Source: Muribaculaceae bacterium | GTDB taxonomy: Bacteria; Bacteroidota; Bacteroidia; Bacteroidales; Muribaculaceae | Assembly: GCA_017547845.1 (NCBI GenBank) | Contig: JAFYNZ010000026.1 | Span: 1,594 to 65,593 of the forward strand | Length of the DNA stretch: 64,000 bases | Reading direction: 5' to 3' | Part shown: positions 43,133 through 49,301 of the stretch, piece after piece | Layout: each line of letters starts with the position of its first letter | Position numbering within the stretch: the stretch's first letter is position 1 | Program-made: the position numbers and the translations under genes | The notes under the pieces: model-generated | Told to the model about the DNA's origin: nothing | What the model saw: only the letters and a program-made list of their open reading frames with translations | The model's database searches: none

Positions 43133-43855
43133 ATGATGACAAAATTAAGTGTAAATATCAATAAAGTGGCAACGCTCCGCAATGCGCGTGGCGAGAATAT
43201 GCCTGACGTTCAGAAATTTGCAGTCGACTGCGAGTCATTCGGCGCACAGGGCATCACTGTGCACCCTCGTCCCGACGAGCGACACATCACTCGTCAAGAT
43301 GTATTCAAGTTGCGTCCTATCGTGAAGACCGAATTCAACATCGAAGGCTATCCAAGCGAGGATTTCATGCAACTCGTGCTTCAAGTGAAGCCGGAGCAAG
43401 TGACTCTTGTGCCTGACAAGCCGGGCGACTTGACATCATCGGCCGGTTGGGACGTGATCAACAATATGGAGTTCTTGACAGGTATCGTCGACCGCTTGAA
43501 AGAGGCAGGTATTCGCTCATCGATCTTCGTAGGTGCTGATGCTGAGCAGATTAAGGCTGCTGCCAAAGCAGGTGCCGATCGTATCGAACTCTACACAAAG
43601 CCATACGTTGACAACTATGCTAAGGACCGCGATGCGGCTGTAGCACCATTCGTCGAAGCGTCTCAGGCTGCTCACAACGCCGGTCTCGGTGTCAATGCCG
43701 GTCACGACCTCAATCTCGAGAATCTTCGTTTCTTCTATCAGTCATTGCCTTACCTCAATGAGGTGTCGATCGGCCATGCCATCATCAGCGACGCCCTCTA
43801 CATGGGTATCGAAGCAACTGTAAAGGCTTATCGTGAATGTTTGAAAGAAGACTAA
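43133..43855 (+). CDS. pdxJ: Pyridoxine 5'-phosphate synthase
   Basis: [39 protein letters not shown]. Confidence 0.96.
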
Positions 43856-43883
43856 TCATAACGTATTAAAAAATAGTTGAACT

Positions 43884-44528
43884 ATGCCGACAACTGCCCC
43901 CGAACAAACCCTCTCGCTTTGGGACTTGACTCTCCAAGGTGGTGTGATAATGATTCCTCTCGCAGTGATGCTATTGGTGAGCATCTACATCCTTGTCGAA
44001 CGCTACATCGTAATCCGTCGTGCTTCGCAAGAAGATGCGACCTTTATGAAGCGTATCCGCGACTATATCCACGATGGCGAGATCGAGAGTGCGACAAAAT
44101 TGTGTAAGAAGACCGACACGCCTTACGCGCGTCTTATCCATAAAGGTATCACTCGCATCGGTCGTCCGATGAACGATGTGCTTGTGGCTATCGAAAACAC
44201 CGGCAACATCGAAGTCTCTGCCTTGGGCCGAGGCTTCACATGGCTGTCTACCACAGCGGCTGCTGCGCCGATGATTGGCTTCTTGGGCACAGTGACCGGT
44301 ATGATTGAGGCCTTCTTCGATATGTCGAAAGCAGGCACAGCATCTAATATCGCGGTGCTATCCGATGGTATCTATGAGGCATTGGTGACTACAGTTGCCG
44401 GTCTTATCGTCGGCATCGTGGCATTGTTTGCCTACAACTTCCTTGTCTCTCGTGTCAATCGCGTGATGAACAATCTCGAAGCGAAGACAATGGAGTTTAT
44501 GGACCTTCTTAACGAACCATCTGCTTAA
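43884..44528 (+). CDS. exbB: MotA/TolQ/ExbB proton channel
   Basis: APMIGFLGTVTGMI, EALVTTVAGL. Confidence 0.9.
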   Translation: MPTTAPEQTLSLWDLTLQGGVIMIPLAVMLLVSIYILVERYIVIRRASQEDATFMKRIRDYIHDGEIESATKLCKKTDTPYARLIHKGITRIGRPMNDVLVAIENTGNIEVSALGRGFTWLSTTAAAAPMIGFLGTVTGMIEAFFDMSKAGTASNIAVLSDGIYEALVTTVAGLIVGIVALFAYNFLVSRVNRVMNNLEAKTMEFMDLLNEPSA

Positions 44529-44545
44529 GATAAACCGTTTGCAAC

Positions 44546-45043
44546 ATGGCACTTAAGAAGCAATACTCATCACAAGCCGCATTCTCGATGTCGTCGATGA
44601 CCGACGTCATCTTCTTGTTGCTGATATTCTTCATGGTGACTTCGACGCTCATCAATCCTGCCGCTATCGAGGTCAATCTCCCACAAAGCAGCGAGCAGAC
44701 ATCGTTGAAGCCGGTGACCGAAGTCTACATGGACAGCCTCTACAATCTATATATGGTGGAAAACCGTCGCGACTCTGTGGCTGAAAAGAAGGAGCCGCGT
44801 CAAGTGTCGCAACAAGAGCTCGTCGCTGCGTTGACATTGATTCAGCAGCAAGACTCATTGCGAGCTGTGGCTCTCTATGCCGACACCAAAGTGGAGTATG
44901 GCAAAGTGATCGAAATACTTGACATGGCAGCACGCAGCAATCTCAAAATGGTGCTCGCCACTAAACCATCGCAGCAACTGCCTCAGACTGAGCAGTCGAC
45001 ACTGGTCGATGTGCCTGTCGTAGAGTTCCCGGCTGCAAATTAA
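44546..45043 (+). CDS. exbD: ExbD/TolR
   Basis: SMTDVIFLLLIFFMVTS, VNLP, LYAD. Confidence 0.9.
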   Translation: MALKKQYSSQAAFSMSSMTDVIFLLLIFFMVTSTLINPAAIEVNLPQSSEQTSLKPVTEVYMDSLYNLYMVENRRDSVAEKKEPRQVSQQELVAALTLIQQQDSLRAVALYADTKVEYGKVIEILDMAARSNLKMVLATKPSQQLPQTEQSTLVDVPVVEFPAAN

Positions 45044-45061
45044 TCCAAGCACGCAAAGTCG

Positions 45062-45814
45062 ATGAAGTTCACTATCTCTCGCGAAAGACTCATAGCCTTG
45101 GCGGTCACAGCAGTGGTCGCCCTCATGCTATTGCTATGGCTCATGGTGGCGACTCTCGGTCGTGACAAAGAAGCACTGACCAAGATGCAGCCACCGATAG
45201 AAGAGGAGCAAGAGATATTTATCGACCCGGAATTGCTGACTCTCGGCGAGCCTGACGCTGTGACCAAAGACAAGCCGGCTCCCGCACCATCGGGACAGCC
45301 CGAGCAGTCGGAAGCTCCGTCAGACAAATTGGTAGTGCCCGGCGAGAAAACCGAGCCTTCGCAATCGACAGAGAAACTGGTGTCGACCACTCATGAAAGC
45401 ACACTCCAGACCAAAGAGCCGACCAAGACCGAAGAGCCTGAGTCGAAGATAAACTCTACTATGAAAGACAAGTTCTCCCCTAAAAACGGTAAGACTGAAG
45501 GCAACGATGAGTCCGTAGGGGCAGGTGGGACAGGTAGCGGCGTGGCAGGTAGTGTCAACGGACGCTCATTCCTCGGTTGCTCATTGCCATCGGTCAGCGT
45601 CAACAAGGCAGTAACAATCTATGTGAGCATCACAGTCGACGAAAACGGCAAAGTGATAGAGGCACGATTTAAGAGCGACAAGGGCGCAGGCGCCGGCAAT
45701 CAGACACTGCGCAACGCCTGTGTCAAGGCTTCGTACAACGCTCGTTGGTCGGTCAAGAAAGGTGAGCCTCGCGCCACCGGCACAATCACCTGGAATCTCC
45801 GCCCCCGCTCCTGA
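45062..45814 (+). CDS. TonB-like energy transducer
   Basis: N-terminal TM, Pro/Glu/Lys linker, TonB_C-like ITVDENGKVIEA...GTITW; follows exbBD. Confidence 0.75.
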   Translation: MKFTISRERLIALAVTAVVALMLLLWLMVATLGRDKEALTKMQPPIEEEQEIFIDPELLTLGEPDAVTKDKPAPAPSGQPEQSEAPSDKLVVPGEKTEPSQSTEKLVSTTHESTLQTKEPTKTEEPESKINSTMKDKFSPKNGKTEGNDESVGAGGTGSGVAGSVNGRSFLGCSLPSVSVNKAVTIYVSITVDENGKVIEARFKSDKGAGAGNQTLRNACVKASYNARWSVKKGEPRATGTITWNLRPRS

Positions 45815-45856: not shown

Positions 45857-48805
45857 ATGAAAACACTGTTTAGATTAAGACTAATAGTTTTGCTGTTGGT
45901 ATTGTGTTGTGTGTCAATTGCGGGAGCACAAAGCGGTATCAGCGTTAAGTCGTTTATGGAGTTGACGCAAGACCTCGACGCACGTGTAAGTTATCCTGAG
46001 TTGGACCAAAATGGTCATAAATGTGCGCTGGTCAAGGTCTATACTACGGAGAGCAATTTCTCGTTTGACAATGGATTGCTTGGAGTGACAAAGGTGATTC
46101 ATAAGCCGGATCTCTCTGAGTGGTGGGTATATCTGCCGGCAAAGACTATGAAGTTGAAGATAATGCATCCTCAACTCGGTCATCTAAAAGACAGTGAAGG
46201 AGGCTACTATTATTTCCCGTCTCCTCTAAAAGAAGCGACTTGCTATTACATGGAACTTACAACTGCCAAGGTGACGGTGGTTGTGGAGGAAGAGCGCAAG
46301 CAGACAGGTTTCTTAATTATAAATAGTCAACCGGAAGGAGCAGATATCTATCTGACTGAAGATGGGGTAGAGAATTATGCCGGTCAGACACCTTTTCAGA
46401 AGAAATTGACCTATGGAAGTTATAATTATCGCCTAAAGAAGTCGTTATATCACGACGAAGTGGGAGTAGCTGTAGTAGACAACACCAGAGTAGAGCAAAA
46501 GATCGTGTTGCGTCCGGCATTTGGCTCTCTTCGAATCACATCGACTCCGTCGGGTGCAAAAGCTTCACTTCAGAACGATCTTCGTTCCTACACCACTCCA
46601 TGCACCATTGAGCATATTCCGTCAGGACAACATCAAGTCAGCATAGTAGCCCCACGATATGCCTCGTTTTCTCGTGTCGTGGATATTATCGATGGTCAGC
46701 AGACAGAATTGGATGCCACGCTTGATGCTCGCTTTGCAACGGTGACTATCAATTCGCTTCCGGGTGCAACAATTAAGGTAAATGGACAAGAAAAGGGTCG
46801 TGGTAGTTATAGTGAAGAACTCGGAGAGGGTATATATGATATCGAGGTTTCTCTCAAAAGTCATCGTAGCGTAACGCGACAGATAGAGGTCGTGGCAAAG
46901 CAACCACAAACTCTCACTATTGAGCCGACGCCAATTTATGGCATGCTTGATATTATCACAAATCCAATGTATGCCAACGTGACAATCAATGGCAAGAGTT
47001 ATGGCGATACCCCATTAAGCATCGAAAAAATGCTCATTGGCGACTACGAAGTAGTACTCAGTAAGGCCGGTTATGCTTCAGTGACCAAGCGAGTTTCAAT
47101 CACCGAAGGCACTCAATCGACCATCGAAGCCACCTTGCCACAAGGACGCGAAATGACAATAAGCAGCGATGCTTCGGGCGATGATGTTATTGTAGATGGC
47201 ACAAAAGTAGGCGTGACGCCATTGACTACAAACCTCGCTTTCGGTAAGCATACTATAGAACTTCATCGTGCAGGTAAAACAACAAAGGCAGATGTAAATA
47301 TCACAACCTCCGGCAATGAGAAGGAGATAGTATTGGCATTTGGATTATTGATGCCTCGTTGGAGTGCTAATGTTACAGCATCGCAGAAAGCAGTCTTGCA
47401 AAAATTGATAGACAGCATGGTTAAGGTAGAAGGAGGTACATTCACAATGGGAGCAACTTCCGAGCAAGGTTGGGAAGCTGAGAGTGACGAGAAGCCTACA
47501 CACAACGTTACGCTCTCAGACTACATGATAGGTAAAACTGAGGTGACTCAGGAGTTGTGGCAAGCCGTAATGGGAAGTAACCCGTCTAATTTTATTGGAA
47601 ATCAGTTGCCTGTAGAGATGGTGTCATGGAATGATTGTCAGGAATTTATAAAGAAACTAAACTCACTGACGGGGTTGAATTTCCGACTACCGACTGAAGC
47701 AGAGTGGGAGTATGCGGCTCGTGGTGGTAATAAAAGTAAAGGCTATAAATACTCGGGAAGCAACGATGTCAATAGCGTGGCATGGTATGATAGCTATTTA
47801 TCATCAATGACACACACTGTTGCGACTAAGTCTGCAAACGAATTGGGACTCTATGATATGAGTGGCAATGTATGGGAATGGTGCAGTGATAGGTATGGAG
47901 ATTACAGCAGTGGCTCGCAGACAAATCCTAAGGGACCAACTTGGGACTCTCACCGCGTGAGCCGTGGCGGTAGTTGGTTCGACGGCGCGAGGGACTGCCG
48001 GGTGTCGTGTCGCAACAGCGACTACCCAGACGACAGGTACATCACCCATGGGCTGCGCCTTGCCCTCGCTGAAGGAGAAGAACCGGAGACACCGGATGAG
48101 CCGGAGTTTGAATACAAGACATACACAGTCAATGGCGTATCGTTTGATATGGTGTCGGTTGCAGGAGGAACATTCACAATGGGAGCGACCTCGGAGCAAT
48201 GTTGGGATGCTGAAAGTAAAGAAAAACCTGCACACCAAGTTACGCTTTCGGACTACATGATATGCAAGACAGAAGTGACGCAAGAGTTGTGGCAAGCTGT
48301 GATGGGTAAAAATCGATCAAGATTTAAGGGTGATAATTTGCCTGTGGAAAATGTGTCATGGAATGATTGTCAGAAGTTTATAAAGAAATTAAACAAACTC
48401 ACAGGCTTGAATTTCCGACTACCAACTGAAGCAGAGTGGGAGTATGCAGCACGTGGTGGCAACAAGAGCAAAGGCTATACATACTCAGGAAGCTATGACA
48501 TTGATAGCGTAGCATGGTACACATTTACTACTAATGATAGTGGAACAAAACCGGTAGCAACTAAAGCTCCAAACGAGTTGGGATTATATGATATGAGTGG
48601 TAATGTATATGAGTGGTGTAGCGATTGGTATGGCGATTATAGCAGTGACTCGCAGACCAATCCCCAAGGACCAACTTCGGGCTCTTACCGCGTGTGCCGT
48701 GGCGGTAGTTGGCGCTACTACCAGAGGCGCTGCCGAGTGTCGTTTCGCGACTACTACAGCCCAGGCCTTAGGTACGAAGGCTTGGGGCTGCGCCTTGCCC
48801 TATAG
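45857..48805 (+). CDS. Secreted PEGA-repeat protein with two FGE-sulfatase/CLec-fold domains; probable DGR target
   Basis: Signal peptide; PEGA repeats (INSQPEGA, ITSTPSGA, ITNPMYANV); two copies of GGTFTMG..TEVTQELW..RLPTEAEWEYAARGG..NELGLYDMSGNV..RGGSW..GLRLAL. Confidence 0.9.
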   Translation: MKTLFRLRLIVLLLVLCCVSIAGAQSGISVKSFMELTQDLDARVSYPELDQNGHKCALVKVYTTESNFSFDNGLLGVTKVIHKPDLSEWWVYLPAKTMKLKIMHPQLGHLKDSEGGYYYFPSPLKEATCYYMELTTAKVTVVVEEERKQTGFLIINSQPEGADIYLTEDGVENYAGQTPFQKKLTYGSYNYRLKKSLYHDEVGVAVVDNTRVEQKIVLRPAFGSLRITSTPSGAKASLQNDLRSYTTPCTIEHIPSGQHQVSIVAPRYASFSRVVDIIDGQQTELDATLDARFATVTINSLPGATIKVNGQEKGRGSYSEELGEGIYDIEVSLKSHRSVTRQIEVVAKQPQTLTIEPTPIYGMLDIITNPMYANVTINGKSYGDTPLSIEKMLIGDYEVVLSKAGYASVTKRVSITEGTQSTIEATLPQGREMTISSDASGDDVIVDGTKVGVTPLTTNLAFGKHTIELHRAGKTTKADVNITTSGNEKEIVLAFGLLMPRWSANVTASQKAVLQKLIDSMVKVEGGTFTMGATSEQGWEAESDEKPTHNVTLSDYMIGKTEVTQELWQAVMGSNPSNFIGNQLPVEMVSWNDCQEFIKKLNSLTGLNFRLPTEAEWEYAARGGNKSKGYKYSGSNDVNSVAWYDSYLSSMTHTVATKSANELGLYDMSGNVWEWCSDRYGDYSSGSQTNPKGPTWDSHRVSRGGSWFDGARDCRVSCRNSDYPDDRYITHGLRLALAEGEEPETPDEPEFEYKTYTVNGVSFDMVSVAGGTFTMGATSEQCWDAESKEKPAHQVTLSDYMICKTEVTQELWQAVMGKNRSRFKGDNLPVENVSWNDCQKFIKKLNKLTGLNFRLPTEAEWEYAARGGNKSKGYTYSGSYDIDSVAWYTFTTNDSGTKPVATKAPNELGLYDMSGNVYEWCSDWYGDYSSDSQTNPQGPTSGSYRVCRGGSWRYYQRRCRVSFRDYYSPGLRYEGLGLRLAL
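47945..48067 (+). repeat. Putative DGR variable region 1 (internal)
   Basis: 123-nt copy related to 48680-48802; differences concentrated at codon positions 1-2 of NNC codons. Confidence 0.75.
48680..48802 (+). repeat. Putative DGR variable region 2 (C-terminal)
   Basis: Same pattern as VR1; ends at the stop codon with shared ggg ctg cgc ctt gcc ct. Confidence 0.75.
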
Positions 48806-48866
48806 GTTACTTGGCATCCGTCTCATATCCTAAGTCTTTGCAGTGCAATAATGCTCAAGAGTATAA

Positions 48867-48903
48867 AAGCCTTCGCTCGACTATTCCGGCCGAGCGAAGG
48901 CTT
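48867..48903. terminator. GC-rich hairpin downstream of the PEGA/FGE gene
   Basis: aagccttcgctcg-N11-cgagcgaaggctt perfect 13-bp stem. Confidence 0.65.
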
Positions 48904-49301
48904 TGAAGGGGCAGGCTATTGCTAACTTTAAGGTTTGGTATCCCTTTGGATGAATCGAGGGTGTATGATTGGGTAAAAAATCGTAATCGTTGGCAAATCT
49001 TGGTGAAATATCGGGTTAAGTTTGTGGAAATCATCAACAATTTGTAATTTTGTGAATTATTATATTAGGGTAGGTGTCGACCATCGTGTCGTCGCTCGAT
49101 GCTTGATGTAGTAATCTCTCGCTGCAAGCTGTCATTGGATAGTGAGGTGGTGGGATACAGATAAGTGTGTAAAACAATGTTGTCTAAGGCTTCAGCGATA
49201 AGGTCAGTCTCACTTCTGCAGGAGGGACGATGACAATGAAGCAACAGGCAATTGAATTAATTAAATCCGTGAAACAATAGGGATTTCCCAAAATAGCGAA
49301 T

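What the first reader, a model, noticed from the sequence alone, without database searches (positions are those of the whole stretch)
47945..48802. Two DGR-type variable regions in one secreted protein, with no RT or template nearby
Seen by manual codon alignment of 47945-48067 against 48680-48802 (41 codons): 21 identical, 2 synonymous, 18 non-synonymous. Fifteen of the 18 keep the third base, and in 13 it is C (e.g. ttc/cgc, gac/tac, ggc/tac, agc/tac). A 32-codon block just upstream shows the opposite pattern, with 9 synonymous and 4 non-synonymous differences. Knowledge: DGRs mutate adenines of AAC-rich templates and rewrite the C-terminal end of CLec/FGE-fold domains. Inference: both domain ends are overwritten from one TR resembling tct aac cgc gtg aac cgt ggc ggt agt tgg aac aac aac...ggg ctg cgc ctt gcc. 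That would make this a remote (trans) chromosomal target with an internal and a terminal VR, i.e. a bivalent hypervariable binder on a PEGA stalk.
Basis: partly seen in the sequence, partly recalled or inferred. Interest (0 to 1): 0.8.

Follow-up and report, generated by a model that had tools for sequence, protein, structure and literature searches.

The report
Orphan retroelement-written tips, one surface protein
A secreted Muribaculaceae protein carries two lectin-fold domains whose tips were both rewritten by a diversity-generating retroelement (DGR), but the retroelement is not in this genome; such tandem, remote and leftover DGR targets are all already known.

Summary
Window 47945-48067 and 48680-48802 are the C-terminal ends of two tandem FGE/C-type-lectin domains of a 982-aa signal-peptide + PEGA protein. 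They have the full DGR variable-region (VR) footprint:
- a GC jump (0.63-0.66 against 0.44);
- NNC codons;
- few third-position differences (5/41 against 74/176 in the rest of the domain);
- differences on the adenines of a real, homologous Muribaculaceae template repeat (25/35 A sites against 7/85 non-A sites, p=7e-12).

The best solved relative is TvpA, the Treponema DGR variable protein.

No DGR reverse transcriptase, HRDC accessory gene or template was found in the 90%-complete assembly, the 220 genus genomes, or the viral, metagenome, phage and plasmid collections searched.

Fifteen of 17 other Muribaculaceae genomes with this VR type also lack the enzyme. One 99%-complete genome lacks exactly the cassette that its congener has. 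Orthologues at least 98% identical share the same VR, and more distant ones are fully re-randomised.

Most likely these are frozen, orphaned VRs. A live remote target with an unassembled cassette is not excluded. Triple-FGE, remote and leftover targets are published, and this scan has noted the same kind in another Muribaculaceae genome. It is a new member of a known kind.

The parts
45857..48805 (+). Target gene, 982 aa: signal peptide, five PEGA repeats, two tandem FGE-sulfatase/C-type-lectin-fold domains
   Evidence: ORF, translation. Pfam PF08308 PEGA (5 stretches, E=1e-47) and PF03781 FGE-sulfatase (2 stretches, E=1e-99).
47411..48064 (+). FGE/CLec domain 1 (internal)
   Evidence: PF03781 match at G000:C23:49004-49657, which is window 47411-48064.
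47945..48067 (+). VR1, internal DGR-type variable region (41 codons), followed in frame by an acidic linker
   Evidence: GC 0.66 against 0.44 upstream; third base C in 23/42 codons. Codon pattern. Differences from VR2 fall on A sites of the homologous template.
48146..48799 (+). FGE/CLec domain 2 (terminal)
   Evidence: PF03781 match at G000:C23:49739-50392. Best solved relative is TvpA, 2y3c, E=2.2e-40, against 6e-25 or weaker for the other chains, true FGEs among them.
48680..48802 (+). VR2, terminal DGR-type variable region (41 codons), directly before the TAG stop
   Evidence: GC 0.63 against 0.43. Aligns residue for residue with the C-terminal stretch of TvpA. Searches also apply.
48803..48837 (+). 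Stop codon plus about 32 nt of 3' flank conserved at terminal VRs of this family; function unknown
   Evidence: The same flank follows the terminal VR on G000:C66. Its first 18 nt or so were also read after three VRs in congeners G157 and G179. It is absent after the internal VRs.
48866..48904 (+). Strong hairpin, probable intrinsic terminator of the operon
   Evidence: 14-bp stem in the centroid fold; z=-3.2 for the 136-nt stretch.
43884..45814 (+). Upstream same-strand genes: exbB, exbD and a 250-aa protein with a hydrophobic N-terminal stretch and a Pro/Glu-rich spacer (context, not part of the VRs)
   Evidence: PF01618 MotA_ExbB and PF02472 ExbD. The 250-aa protein has no Pfam match; its sequence is.

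Best explanation
The gene encodes a secreted PEGA-stalk protein with two tandem TvpA-like FGE/C-type-lectin domains.

The last 40 or so codons of each domain were overwritten by mutagenic retrohoming from one and the same DGR template repeat. That template was an AAC-rich, otherwise GC-rich sequence of the kind carried by the HRDC-RT-TR cassettes of related Muribaculaceae. This happened after the two domains had diverged, and each copy drew its own set of adenine substitutions.

Shown: the footprint, the shared template and the absence of any writer in the assembly.

Inferred: the cassette has since been lost, or was only ever a transient mobile visitor. The two VRs are then frozen leftovers that still give the protein two different binding tips but are no longer being diversified in this strain.
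For: DGR footprint:
- Reversed codon-position pattern and GC jump.
- VR1/VR2 differences fall on 25/35 adenine sites against 7/85 other sites of a real Muribaculaceae template, p=7e-12.
- Among the four GC-rich VRs of this genome, only 3 of 70 invariant columns are A, and 40 of 50 variable columns contain an A.
- In 17 distinct orthologue VRs the hypervariable columns largely coincide with those that differ between VR1 and VR2, and 262/272 residues there are reachable from NNC codons.
- TvpA is the best solved relative and aligns through the VR.

One template for both VRs:
- 36/41 third positions are identical, against 58% elsewhere in the domain.

No writer found:
- The only RT in the genome is a 552-aa Drt/AbiA-like protein on another contig.
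- Two DGR RTs and the HRDC protein give no DGR-type hit by tblastn: nothing for the RTs, and one 60-residue HRDC-domain match (E=3e-7) on contig C18 that I did not examine. Two real templates give no template-like hit by blastn.
- No template turned up in the genus (220 genomes), in a 25-mer scan of 185,579 species genomes, or in viral, metagenome, phage and plasmid collections.

Orphan state is usual in the family:
- Congeners G157 and G179 (99% complete) carry the same VR family and no RT at all.
- 15 of 17 VR-bearing Muribaculaceae genomes of other genera lack a DGR RT.
- G241 has the target and the downstream gene but about 160 bp where G505 has the 1.78-kb cassette. Its VR still differs from the G505 template at 18/36 A sites against 8/90 other sites.

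Frozen VRs:
- Nine orthologue pairs at least 98% identical outside the VR have 96-100% identical VRs. Pairs at 90-97% are saturated at about 0.6.

Precedent:
- Leftover targets occur in T. denticola isolates lacking the RT and template (PMC4891356).
Against: - The assembly is only 89.8% complete, in 69 contigs. A cassette on an unbinned mobile element would be invisible.
- The two VRs look undecayed: full GC jump and no clear neutral change at non-adenine positions. The last rewriting was therefore recent relative to the divergence of the two domains.
- Orthologues only 7-10% diverged already have fully different VRs, so a writer has been active repeatedly in this clade.
- No read data or population data for this exact strain could be examined. 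The exact protein is on record from two further contigs in ENA, and the nearest other sequences are at most 81% identical over domain 2.
Confidence: 0.55

Rival explanations
1. Live remote target. A resident DGR of the HRDC-RT-TR type lies in the missing 10% of the genome or on an unbinned element. It currently diversifies both VRs here, and the two on contig C66, in trans.
For: - The VRs are undecayed and share one template.
- The assembly is incomplete and breaks inside FGE repeats.
- HRDC-type DGRs with FGE-type templates exist in the same genus (G077) and family (G505, G451).
- The HRDC architecture is that of the Treponema DGR, which has the most non-adjacent targets on record (seven), and a triple-FGE target appears to be diversified in all three domains (PMC5758913).
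Against: - No RT fragment or template in any of the 69 contigs; the one HRDC-domain match, on contig C18, was not examined.
- The HRDC-type DGRs examined in the family (G077, G505) have a single adjacent target.
- Near-complete relatives with the same VR family have no RT.
- Close orthologue strains show identical VRs.
Confidence: 0.3
2. Episodic trans-writing by mobile cassettes. DGR cassettes on phages or conjugative elements pass through the population and rewrite any resident VR whose conserved scaffold they match. They are then lost, so the VRs are re-randomised between lineages without a resident DGR.
For: - Step-like relation between overall identity and VR identity.
- Clean presence/absence of the cassette between congeners.
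- Most VR-bearing genomes lack the RT.
- A 25-nt scaffold is identical in templates and VRs from five phyla.
Against: - No matching template in 2.9 million viral contigs, 50,697 phage records or 72,556 plasmids.
- The cassettes seen sit between chromosomal genes with no mobile-element genes in the stretch read.
- Recombination of whole VR alleles between strains would give the same step pattern.
Confidence: 0.1
3. Not a retroelement product. This would be an ordinary duplicated domain whose tip evolves under strong diversifying selection, with gene conversion keeping the framework identical.
For: Mosaicism among paralogues and orthologues suggests recombination in this family.
Against: - Selection does not explain retention of third-base C while positions 1 and 2 are both replaced in 7 of the 15 non-synonymous codons that keep their third base.
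- It does not explain the codon usage and GC foreign to the gene.
- It does not explain the near absence of invariant adenines.
- It does not explain why the changes sit on the adenines of a real template.
Confidence: 0.03

Closest known systems
TvpA and the other FGE-type targets of the Treponema denticola DGR (PDB 2Y3C; PMC4891356)
   Same: - FGE-sulfatase-type C-type-lectin fold with the VR in the last 40 or so residues, and the same framework (RV.RGGSW...C.V..R...SPG.R...LG.RLA), at E=2e-40.
- An HRDC-type cassette in relatives.
- Targets far from the cassette.
- Target genes left behind in isolates that have neither the RT nor the template.
   Different: - Here two domains, each with a VR, sit in one protein on a PEGA stalk with a signal peptide. 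No lipobox is evident by eye, unlike the lipoprotein targets of Treponema.
- The organism is a Muribaculaceae.
- No cognate template is known in any strain.
Target gene with three tandem FGE-sulfatase domains in the GenBank DGR survey (PMC5758913)
   Same: More than one FGE domain in a single target gene; there all three 'appear to become diversified'. Internal VRs followed by more coding sequence.
   Different: That example has its RT and template. Here none is found, and the domain count is two (possibly four in the paralogue split over contigs C62 and C66).
HRDC-RT-TR cassettes of Muribaculaceae MAGs (L015/G505 = CAZCEB010000024.1; G077; G451)
   Same: The template has the same length and reading frame as VR1 and VR2, and most of its non-adenine positions are identical to them. 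It lies next to a 332-aa DGR RT and an HRDC protein.
   Different: - VR1 and VR2 mismatch the L015 template at 13-15 of 85 non-adenine sites, mostly near the 3' end, so it is a relative and not their template.
- In the two cassette genomes checked (G505, G077) the template matches one adjacent target only; G451 was not checked.

Membership tests
DGR target / variable region | VR lies at the C-terminal end of a C-type-lectin (FGE-type) fold domain | tested here: met
   Two PF03781 domains ending at 48064 and 48799. The TvpA alignment runs through the VR.
DGR target / variable region | A cognate template repeat exists that differs from the VR only at its adenines | tested here: not met
   No template found in the own genome, the genus, the family sample, a 25-mer scan across GTDB, or viral, metagenome, phage and plasmid collections. 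Records of this genome or near relatives may be left out of the collection scans.
DGR target / variable region | Substitutions are adenine-specific | tested here: inconclusive
   Proxy tests only. VR1/VR2 differences fall on 25/35 A sites against 7/85 non-A sites of a homologous template. Only 3 of 70 invariant columns are A. Strongly suggestive, but the true template is missing.
DGR target / variable region | A DGR-clade reverse transcriptase is present in the same genome | tested here: not met
   PF00078 finds one RT, which is Drt4/Drt3b/AbiA-like. Two DGR RT queries give nothing. The genome is 89.8% complete.
DGR target / variable region | Variable codons are of the AAY-derived NNC type, which cannot become stop codons | tested here: met
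   13 of the 15 non-synonymous codons that keep their third base end in C. 262/272 residues at the hypervariable columns of orthologues are NNC-compatible.
DGR target / variable region | Ongoing diversification: within-population variation confined to the VR | not testable with these tools
Indirect evidence points the other way: orthologue strains at least 98% identical share their VR.
Formylglycine-generating enzyme (SUMF1/FGE), as the public annotation of relatives reads | Catalytic cysteine pair and enzyme-level similarity | not tested
   Only indirect. The TvpA match (E=2e-40) is 15 orders of magnitude better than any true FGE, and all NCBIfam enzyme models score far below their cut-offs. 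Active-site residues were not examined.

The most novel reading that the evidence does not exclude
Muribaculaceae keep a standing family of single- and multi-domain FGE/lectin surface proteins whose tips are rewritten only episodically. The writers would be HRDC-type DGR cassettes that come and go and act in trans on every resident VR sharing a DNA-level scaffold conserved across genera. A strain such as this one, with four fresh VRs in two proteins and no cassette, would be the normal state between visits.
Probability: 0.15. Interest if true: 0.6.

Novelty: new member of a known kind. Interest (0 to 1): 0.3.

Why it matters
- The public name of relatives ('SUMF1/EgtB/PvdO family nonheme iron enzyme') is misleading. 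The protein is a TvpA-like variable binder with two independently randomised tips.
- It adds a Muribaculaceae example of tandem VRs and of targets without a cassette.
- In this family most genomes with such VRs lack the reverse transcriptase. DGR surveys that start from the RT therefore miss most of the diversified proteins of these gut bacteria.
- It does not open a new mechanism.

Tried and rejected
- **Contig C66 VR as template.** I tested whether the AAC-rich VR at G000:C66:5607-5747 could be the template. It lies at the end of an ORF with the same stop and flank, and it mismatches VR1, VR2 and C66b at 13-16 of 89 non-adenine sites. Rejected.
- **The contig C40 RT as writer.** It is unrelated to DGR RTs (no hit even at E<=10) and has no template-like repeat. 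Rejected.
- **Pattern scans for the template.** Five viral scans, one genome scan and one metagenome scan returned only other DGR families.
- **Phage and plasmid BLAST.** No match.
- **Near-identical alleles of this gene.** The exact protein is on record from two further contigs in ENA, whose samples I could not trace, and no other sequence was above 81% identity for domain 2. The population test was therefore impossible.
DNA of the orthologue contigs (up to 65 kb) could not be fetched to look for a cassette.
- **Transition/transversion comparison.** The gapless comparison with the upstream block is spoiled by an indel, so I did not use it.
- **Hairpin after VR2.** Folding the DNA just after VR2 showed no strong hairpin adjacent to the VR, only the distal terminator.
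Full report
**What is there**

The finding lies in one ORF, window 45857-48805 (+), 982 aa. Pfam gives a signal-peptide-bearing protein with five PEGA repeats and two FGE-sulfatase domains (PF03781, E=1e-99). On the genome the two domains are window 47411-48064 and 48146-48799. The window is G000:C23:1594-65593, in a 2.32-Mb, 69-contig, 89.8%-complete assembly. Close protein relatives are named as Muribaculaceae MAG proteins. The two blocks of the finding are the last 41 codons of each domain. The first is followed in frame by an acidic linker, the second by the stop codon.

**Check of the observation**

Fifteen of the 18 keep the third base, which is C in 13.

| Codon position | Differences in the VR | Differences in the other 176 aligned codons | Fisher p |
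|---|---|---|---|
| 1 | 15/41 | 27/176 | – |
| 2 | 13/41 | 19/176 | – |
| 1 + 2 | 28/82 | 46/352 | 2.7e-5 |
| 3 | 5/41 | 74/176 | 2.5e-4 |

So the VR reverses the usual pattern. GC jumps from 0.44 and 0.43 in the 300 nt upstream to 0.66 and 0.63 in the blocks.

**What it is**

Several lines agree that these are DGR variable regions.

- **Fold.** The best solved relative of domain 2 is TvpA, the Treponema denticola DGR variable protein (2y3c), at E=2.2e-40, against 6e-25 or weaker for all other chains, true FGEs among them. The alignment runs residue for residue through the VR.
- **A real homologous template.** A 25-nt stretch of the VR framework, scanned over 185,579 species genomes, hit 11 loci. 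One of them (L015, an uncultured Muribaculaceae MAG) is an AAC-rich template repeat lying directly after a 332-aa RVT_1 protein and an HRDC-domain protein. Its genome holds one adjacent VR at 84% identity. The template aligns without gaps to VR1 and VR2. The positions where VR1 and VR2 differ are 25 of its 35 adenines, against 7 of its 85 other bases (p=7e-12).
- **Internal signature.** Among the four GC-rich VRs of this genome, 70 of 120 columns are invariant and only 3 of those are A. Forty of the 50 variable columns contain an A.
- **Orthologues.** In 17 distinct VRs of orthologues from other assemblies, the hypervariable columns (3, 6, 12-14, 16, 17, 22, 24-27, 30, 32-34) largely coincide with the columns that differ between VR1 and VR2. 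At those columns 262 of 272 residues belong to the 15 amino acids reachable from NNC.

Ordinary diversifying selection with gene conversion does not explain third-base retention, the foreign codon usage, or the link to template adenines.

**One template, written after the domains diverged**

The two domains differ at 42% of third positions outside the VR, but at only 5 of 41 inside it. Two of those five (CGG/CGA and CTC/CTA) involve an A. Both ends were therefore homogenised by the same template and then, or thereby, randomised independently.

**The writer is not found**

| Where searched | What was searched for | Result |
|---|---|---|
| Own genome | RT (PF00078) | One hit: a 552-aa protein on contig C40, best NCBIfam matches Drt4, Drt3b and AbiA, all far below cut-off |
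| Own genome | Two DGR RTs and the HRDC accessory protein (tblastn) | No DGR-type hit: the RT queries give only chance-level matches (E 0.06 and weaker); the HRDC query gives one 60-residue match on contig C18 (E=3e-7), not examined |
| Own genome | VR1, VR2 and two real templates (blastn, word size 7) | Only the C-termini of other FGE domains |
| 219 other genomes of the genus | VR DNA | Two related VRs (G157, G179), no template |
| G157 (81% complete) and G179 (99% complete) | RT | No RT at all |
| 400 other family genomes | VR DNA | Related VRs in 17 genomes; the only template was that of L015 (the same genome as G505) |
| Viral contigs | Five pattern scans | Four scans empty; one hit a single VR-like locus (L012), not a template |
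| Metagenome contigs | One pattern scan | Only other DGR families |
| Phage and plasmid records | VR DNA | No match |

Collection scans may leave out records of this genome or its nearest kin, so this is 'not found', not 'absent'.

**Is the orphan state real or an assembly gap?**

Three results favour a real orphan state.

- Of the 17 VR-bearing genomes of other genera, only 2 have a DGR RT. Of the 10 that are at least 90% complete, only 1 has one.
- G241 (99% complete, 30 contigs) and G505 share the target gene and the downstream MutS2-like gene at 86-87% identity. G505 has the 1.78-kb HRDC-RT-TR cassette between them, and G241 has about 160 bp. The G241 VR still differs from the G505 template at 18/36 adenines against 8/90 other sites. 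[quoted passage not shown]
- Among full-length orthologues, nine pairs at least 98% identical outside the VR have 96-100% identical VRs. Pairs at 90-97% identity have already dropped to about 0.6, the saturation level. Rewriting is therefore rare or episodic at strain level.

Against this:
- The assembly lacks a tenth of its markers and breaks inside FGE repeats.
- VR1 and VR2 look undecayed.
- Re-randomisation between 7-10%-diverged orthologues shows that a writer has acted repeatedly in the clade.

I put frozen leftover VRs at 0.55, a live remote target with an unassembled cassette at 0.3, and episodic trans-writing by mobile cassettes at 0.1.

**Family context in this genome**

PF03781 matches 19 places, about 17 domains in roughly 7 genes, most of them in tandem arrays of two to four domains.

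| VR group | Domain tips | GC of the tip |
|---|---|---|
| Full GC jump and NNC signature | Four: the two here and two on contig C66 | 0.56-0.66 |
| Intermediate | Three: C62 3840-4508, C62 4599-5267, and the last domain on C8 | 0.50-0.58 |
| No jump over the upstream sequence (or, in two tips, 0.06-0.07) | The rest | 0.37-0.50 |

This gradient fits repeated writing followed by decay towards host composition.

**Comparison with what is known**

- Non-adjacent and remote targets are published: 45 of 372 DGRs, up to seven targets for Treponema, whose cassette is the HRDC architecture (PMC5758913).
- Leftover targets in cassette-less strains are published (PMC4891356).
- RT-centred metagenome surveys state that they cannot see remote targets (PMC8144416).
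- This scan has already noted the same kind of thing in another Muribaculaceae genome (e1-2163110).

The finding is therefore a sound new member of a known kind. The family-level frequency of cassette-less VRs is its most useful by-product.

**Function, inferred**

The protein would be a secreted protein with two independently randomised lectin-type binding tips on a PEGA stalk. The gene is the last of a same-strand run: pdxJ, exbB, exbD, a 250-aa protein with a hydrophobic N-terminal stretch and a Pro/Glu-rich spacer, then the target. Some orthologues carry a TonB_C domain after the VR (P0018, E=1.5e-21). These hint at a link with TonB-dependent uptake that I did not pursue.

Orthologue contigs could therefore not be read.

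Noticed in passing
L059:1231-3078 (G241) against L079:526-3991 (G505): Two congeneric Muribaculaceae genomes share a DGR target gene and the downstream MutS2-like gene. Only G505 has the 1.78-kb HRDC-RT-TR cassette between them, and G241 has about 160 bp. This is a clean presence/absence of a whole DGR cassette with the VR left behind.
   Followed up: partly
Loci L059-L078 (17 genomes): Fifteen of 17 Muribaculaceae genomes of other genera that carry a GC-rich FGE-type VR homologous to this one have no DGR-type RT, including nine that are at least 90% complete.
   Followed up: partly
L013-L023: The 25-mer CCGCGTGNNCCGTGGCGGTAGTTGG is identical in FGE-type templates or VRs of MAGs from Muribaculaceae, Treponema, Pirellula, Ignavibacteria and Verrucomicrobiales. 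This DNA-level conservation across phyla suggests either transfer of cassettes or a constraint on the template itself.
   Followed up: no
window 48803-48837; also G000:C66 below 5607, L049, L050, L053: About 32 nt after the stop codon of terminal VRs (TAGGTTACTTGGCATCCGTCTCATATCCTAAG) recur on G000:C66, and their first 18 nt or so after three VRs in two other genomes of the genus. Internal VRs lack them. No strong hairpin is predicted there.
   Followed up: partly
window 43133-45814, and orthologues P0018 and P0024: The target gene closes a same-strand run: pdxJ, exbB, exbD and a 250-aa protein with a hydrophobic N-terminal stretch and a Pro/Glu-rich spacer. Some orthologues have a TonB_C domain (PF03544, E=1.5e-21) fused after the VR. 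A DGR-type binder joined to TonB parts is unexplained.
   Followed up: partly
L009:1135-2793 (G000:C40): This is the only reverse transcriptase of the genome, 552 aa. It scores weakly with Drt4, Drt3b, group II, AbiA and retron models, all far below their cut-offs. It is an unclassified defence-like RT.
   Followed up: no
G000 contigs C61 (start), C62 (both ends), C66 (end): Three contigs end inside the same FGE-domain repeat (…KSRGHKYSG…). The lipoprotein gene at C62:3693-5720 probably continues into C66:6695-5610, which would give a four-FGE protein with four VR-like tips.
   Followed up: no
window 48146-48805 (P0122): The protein on record from NCBI for this 68,842-bp contig is only the last 218 aa (domain 2, starting MVSVAGG). 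The ENA record has the full 982-aa protein. The deposited annotation may therefore truncate or split the gene.
   Followed up: no
I found no evidence linking them to the VRs.
   Followed up: no
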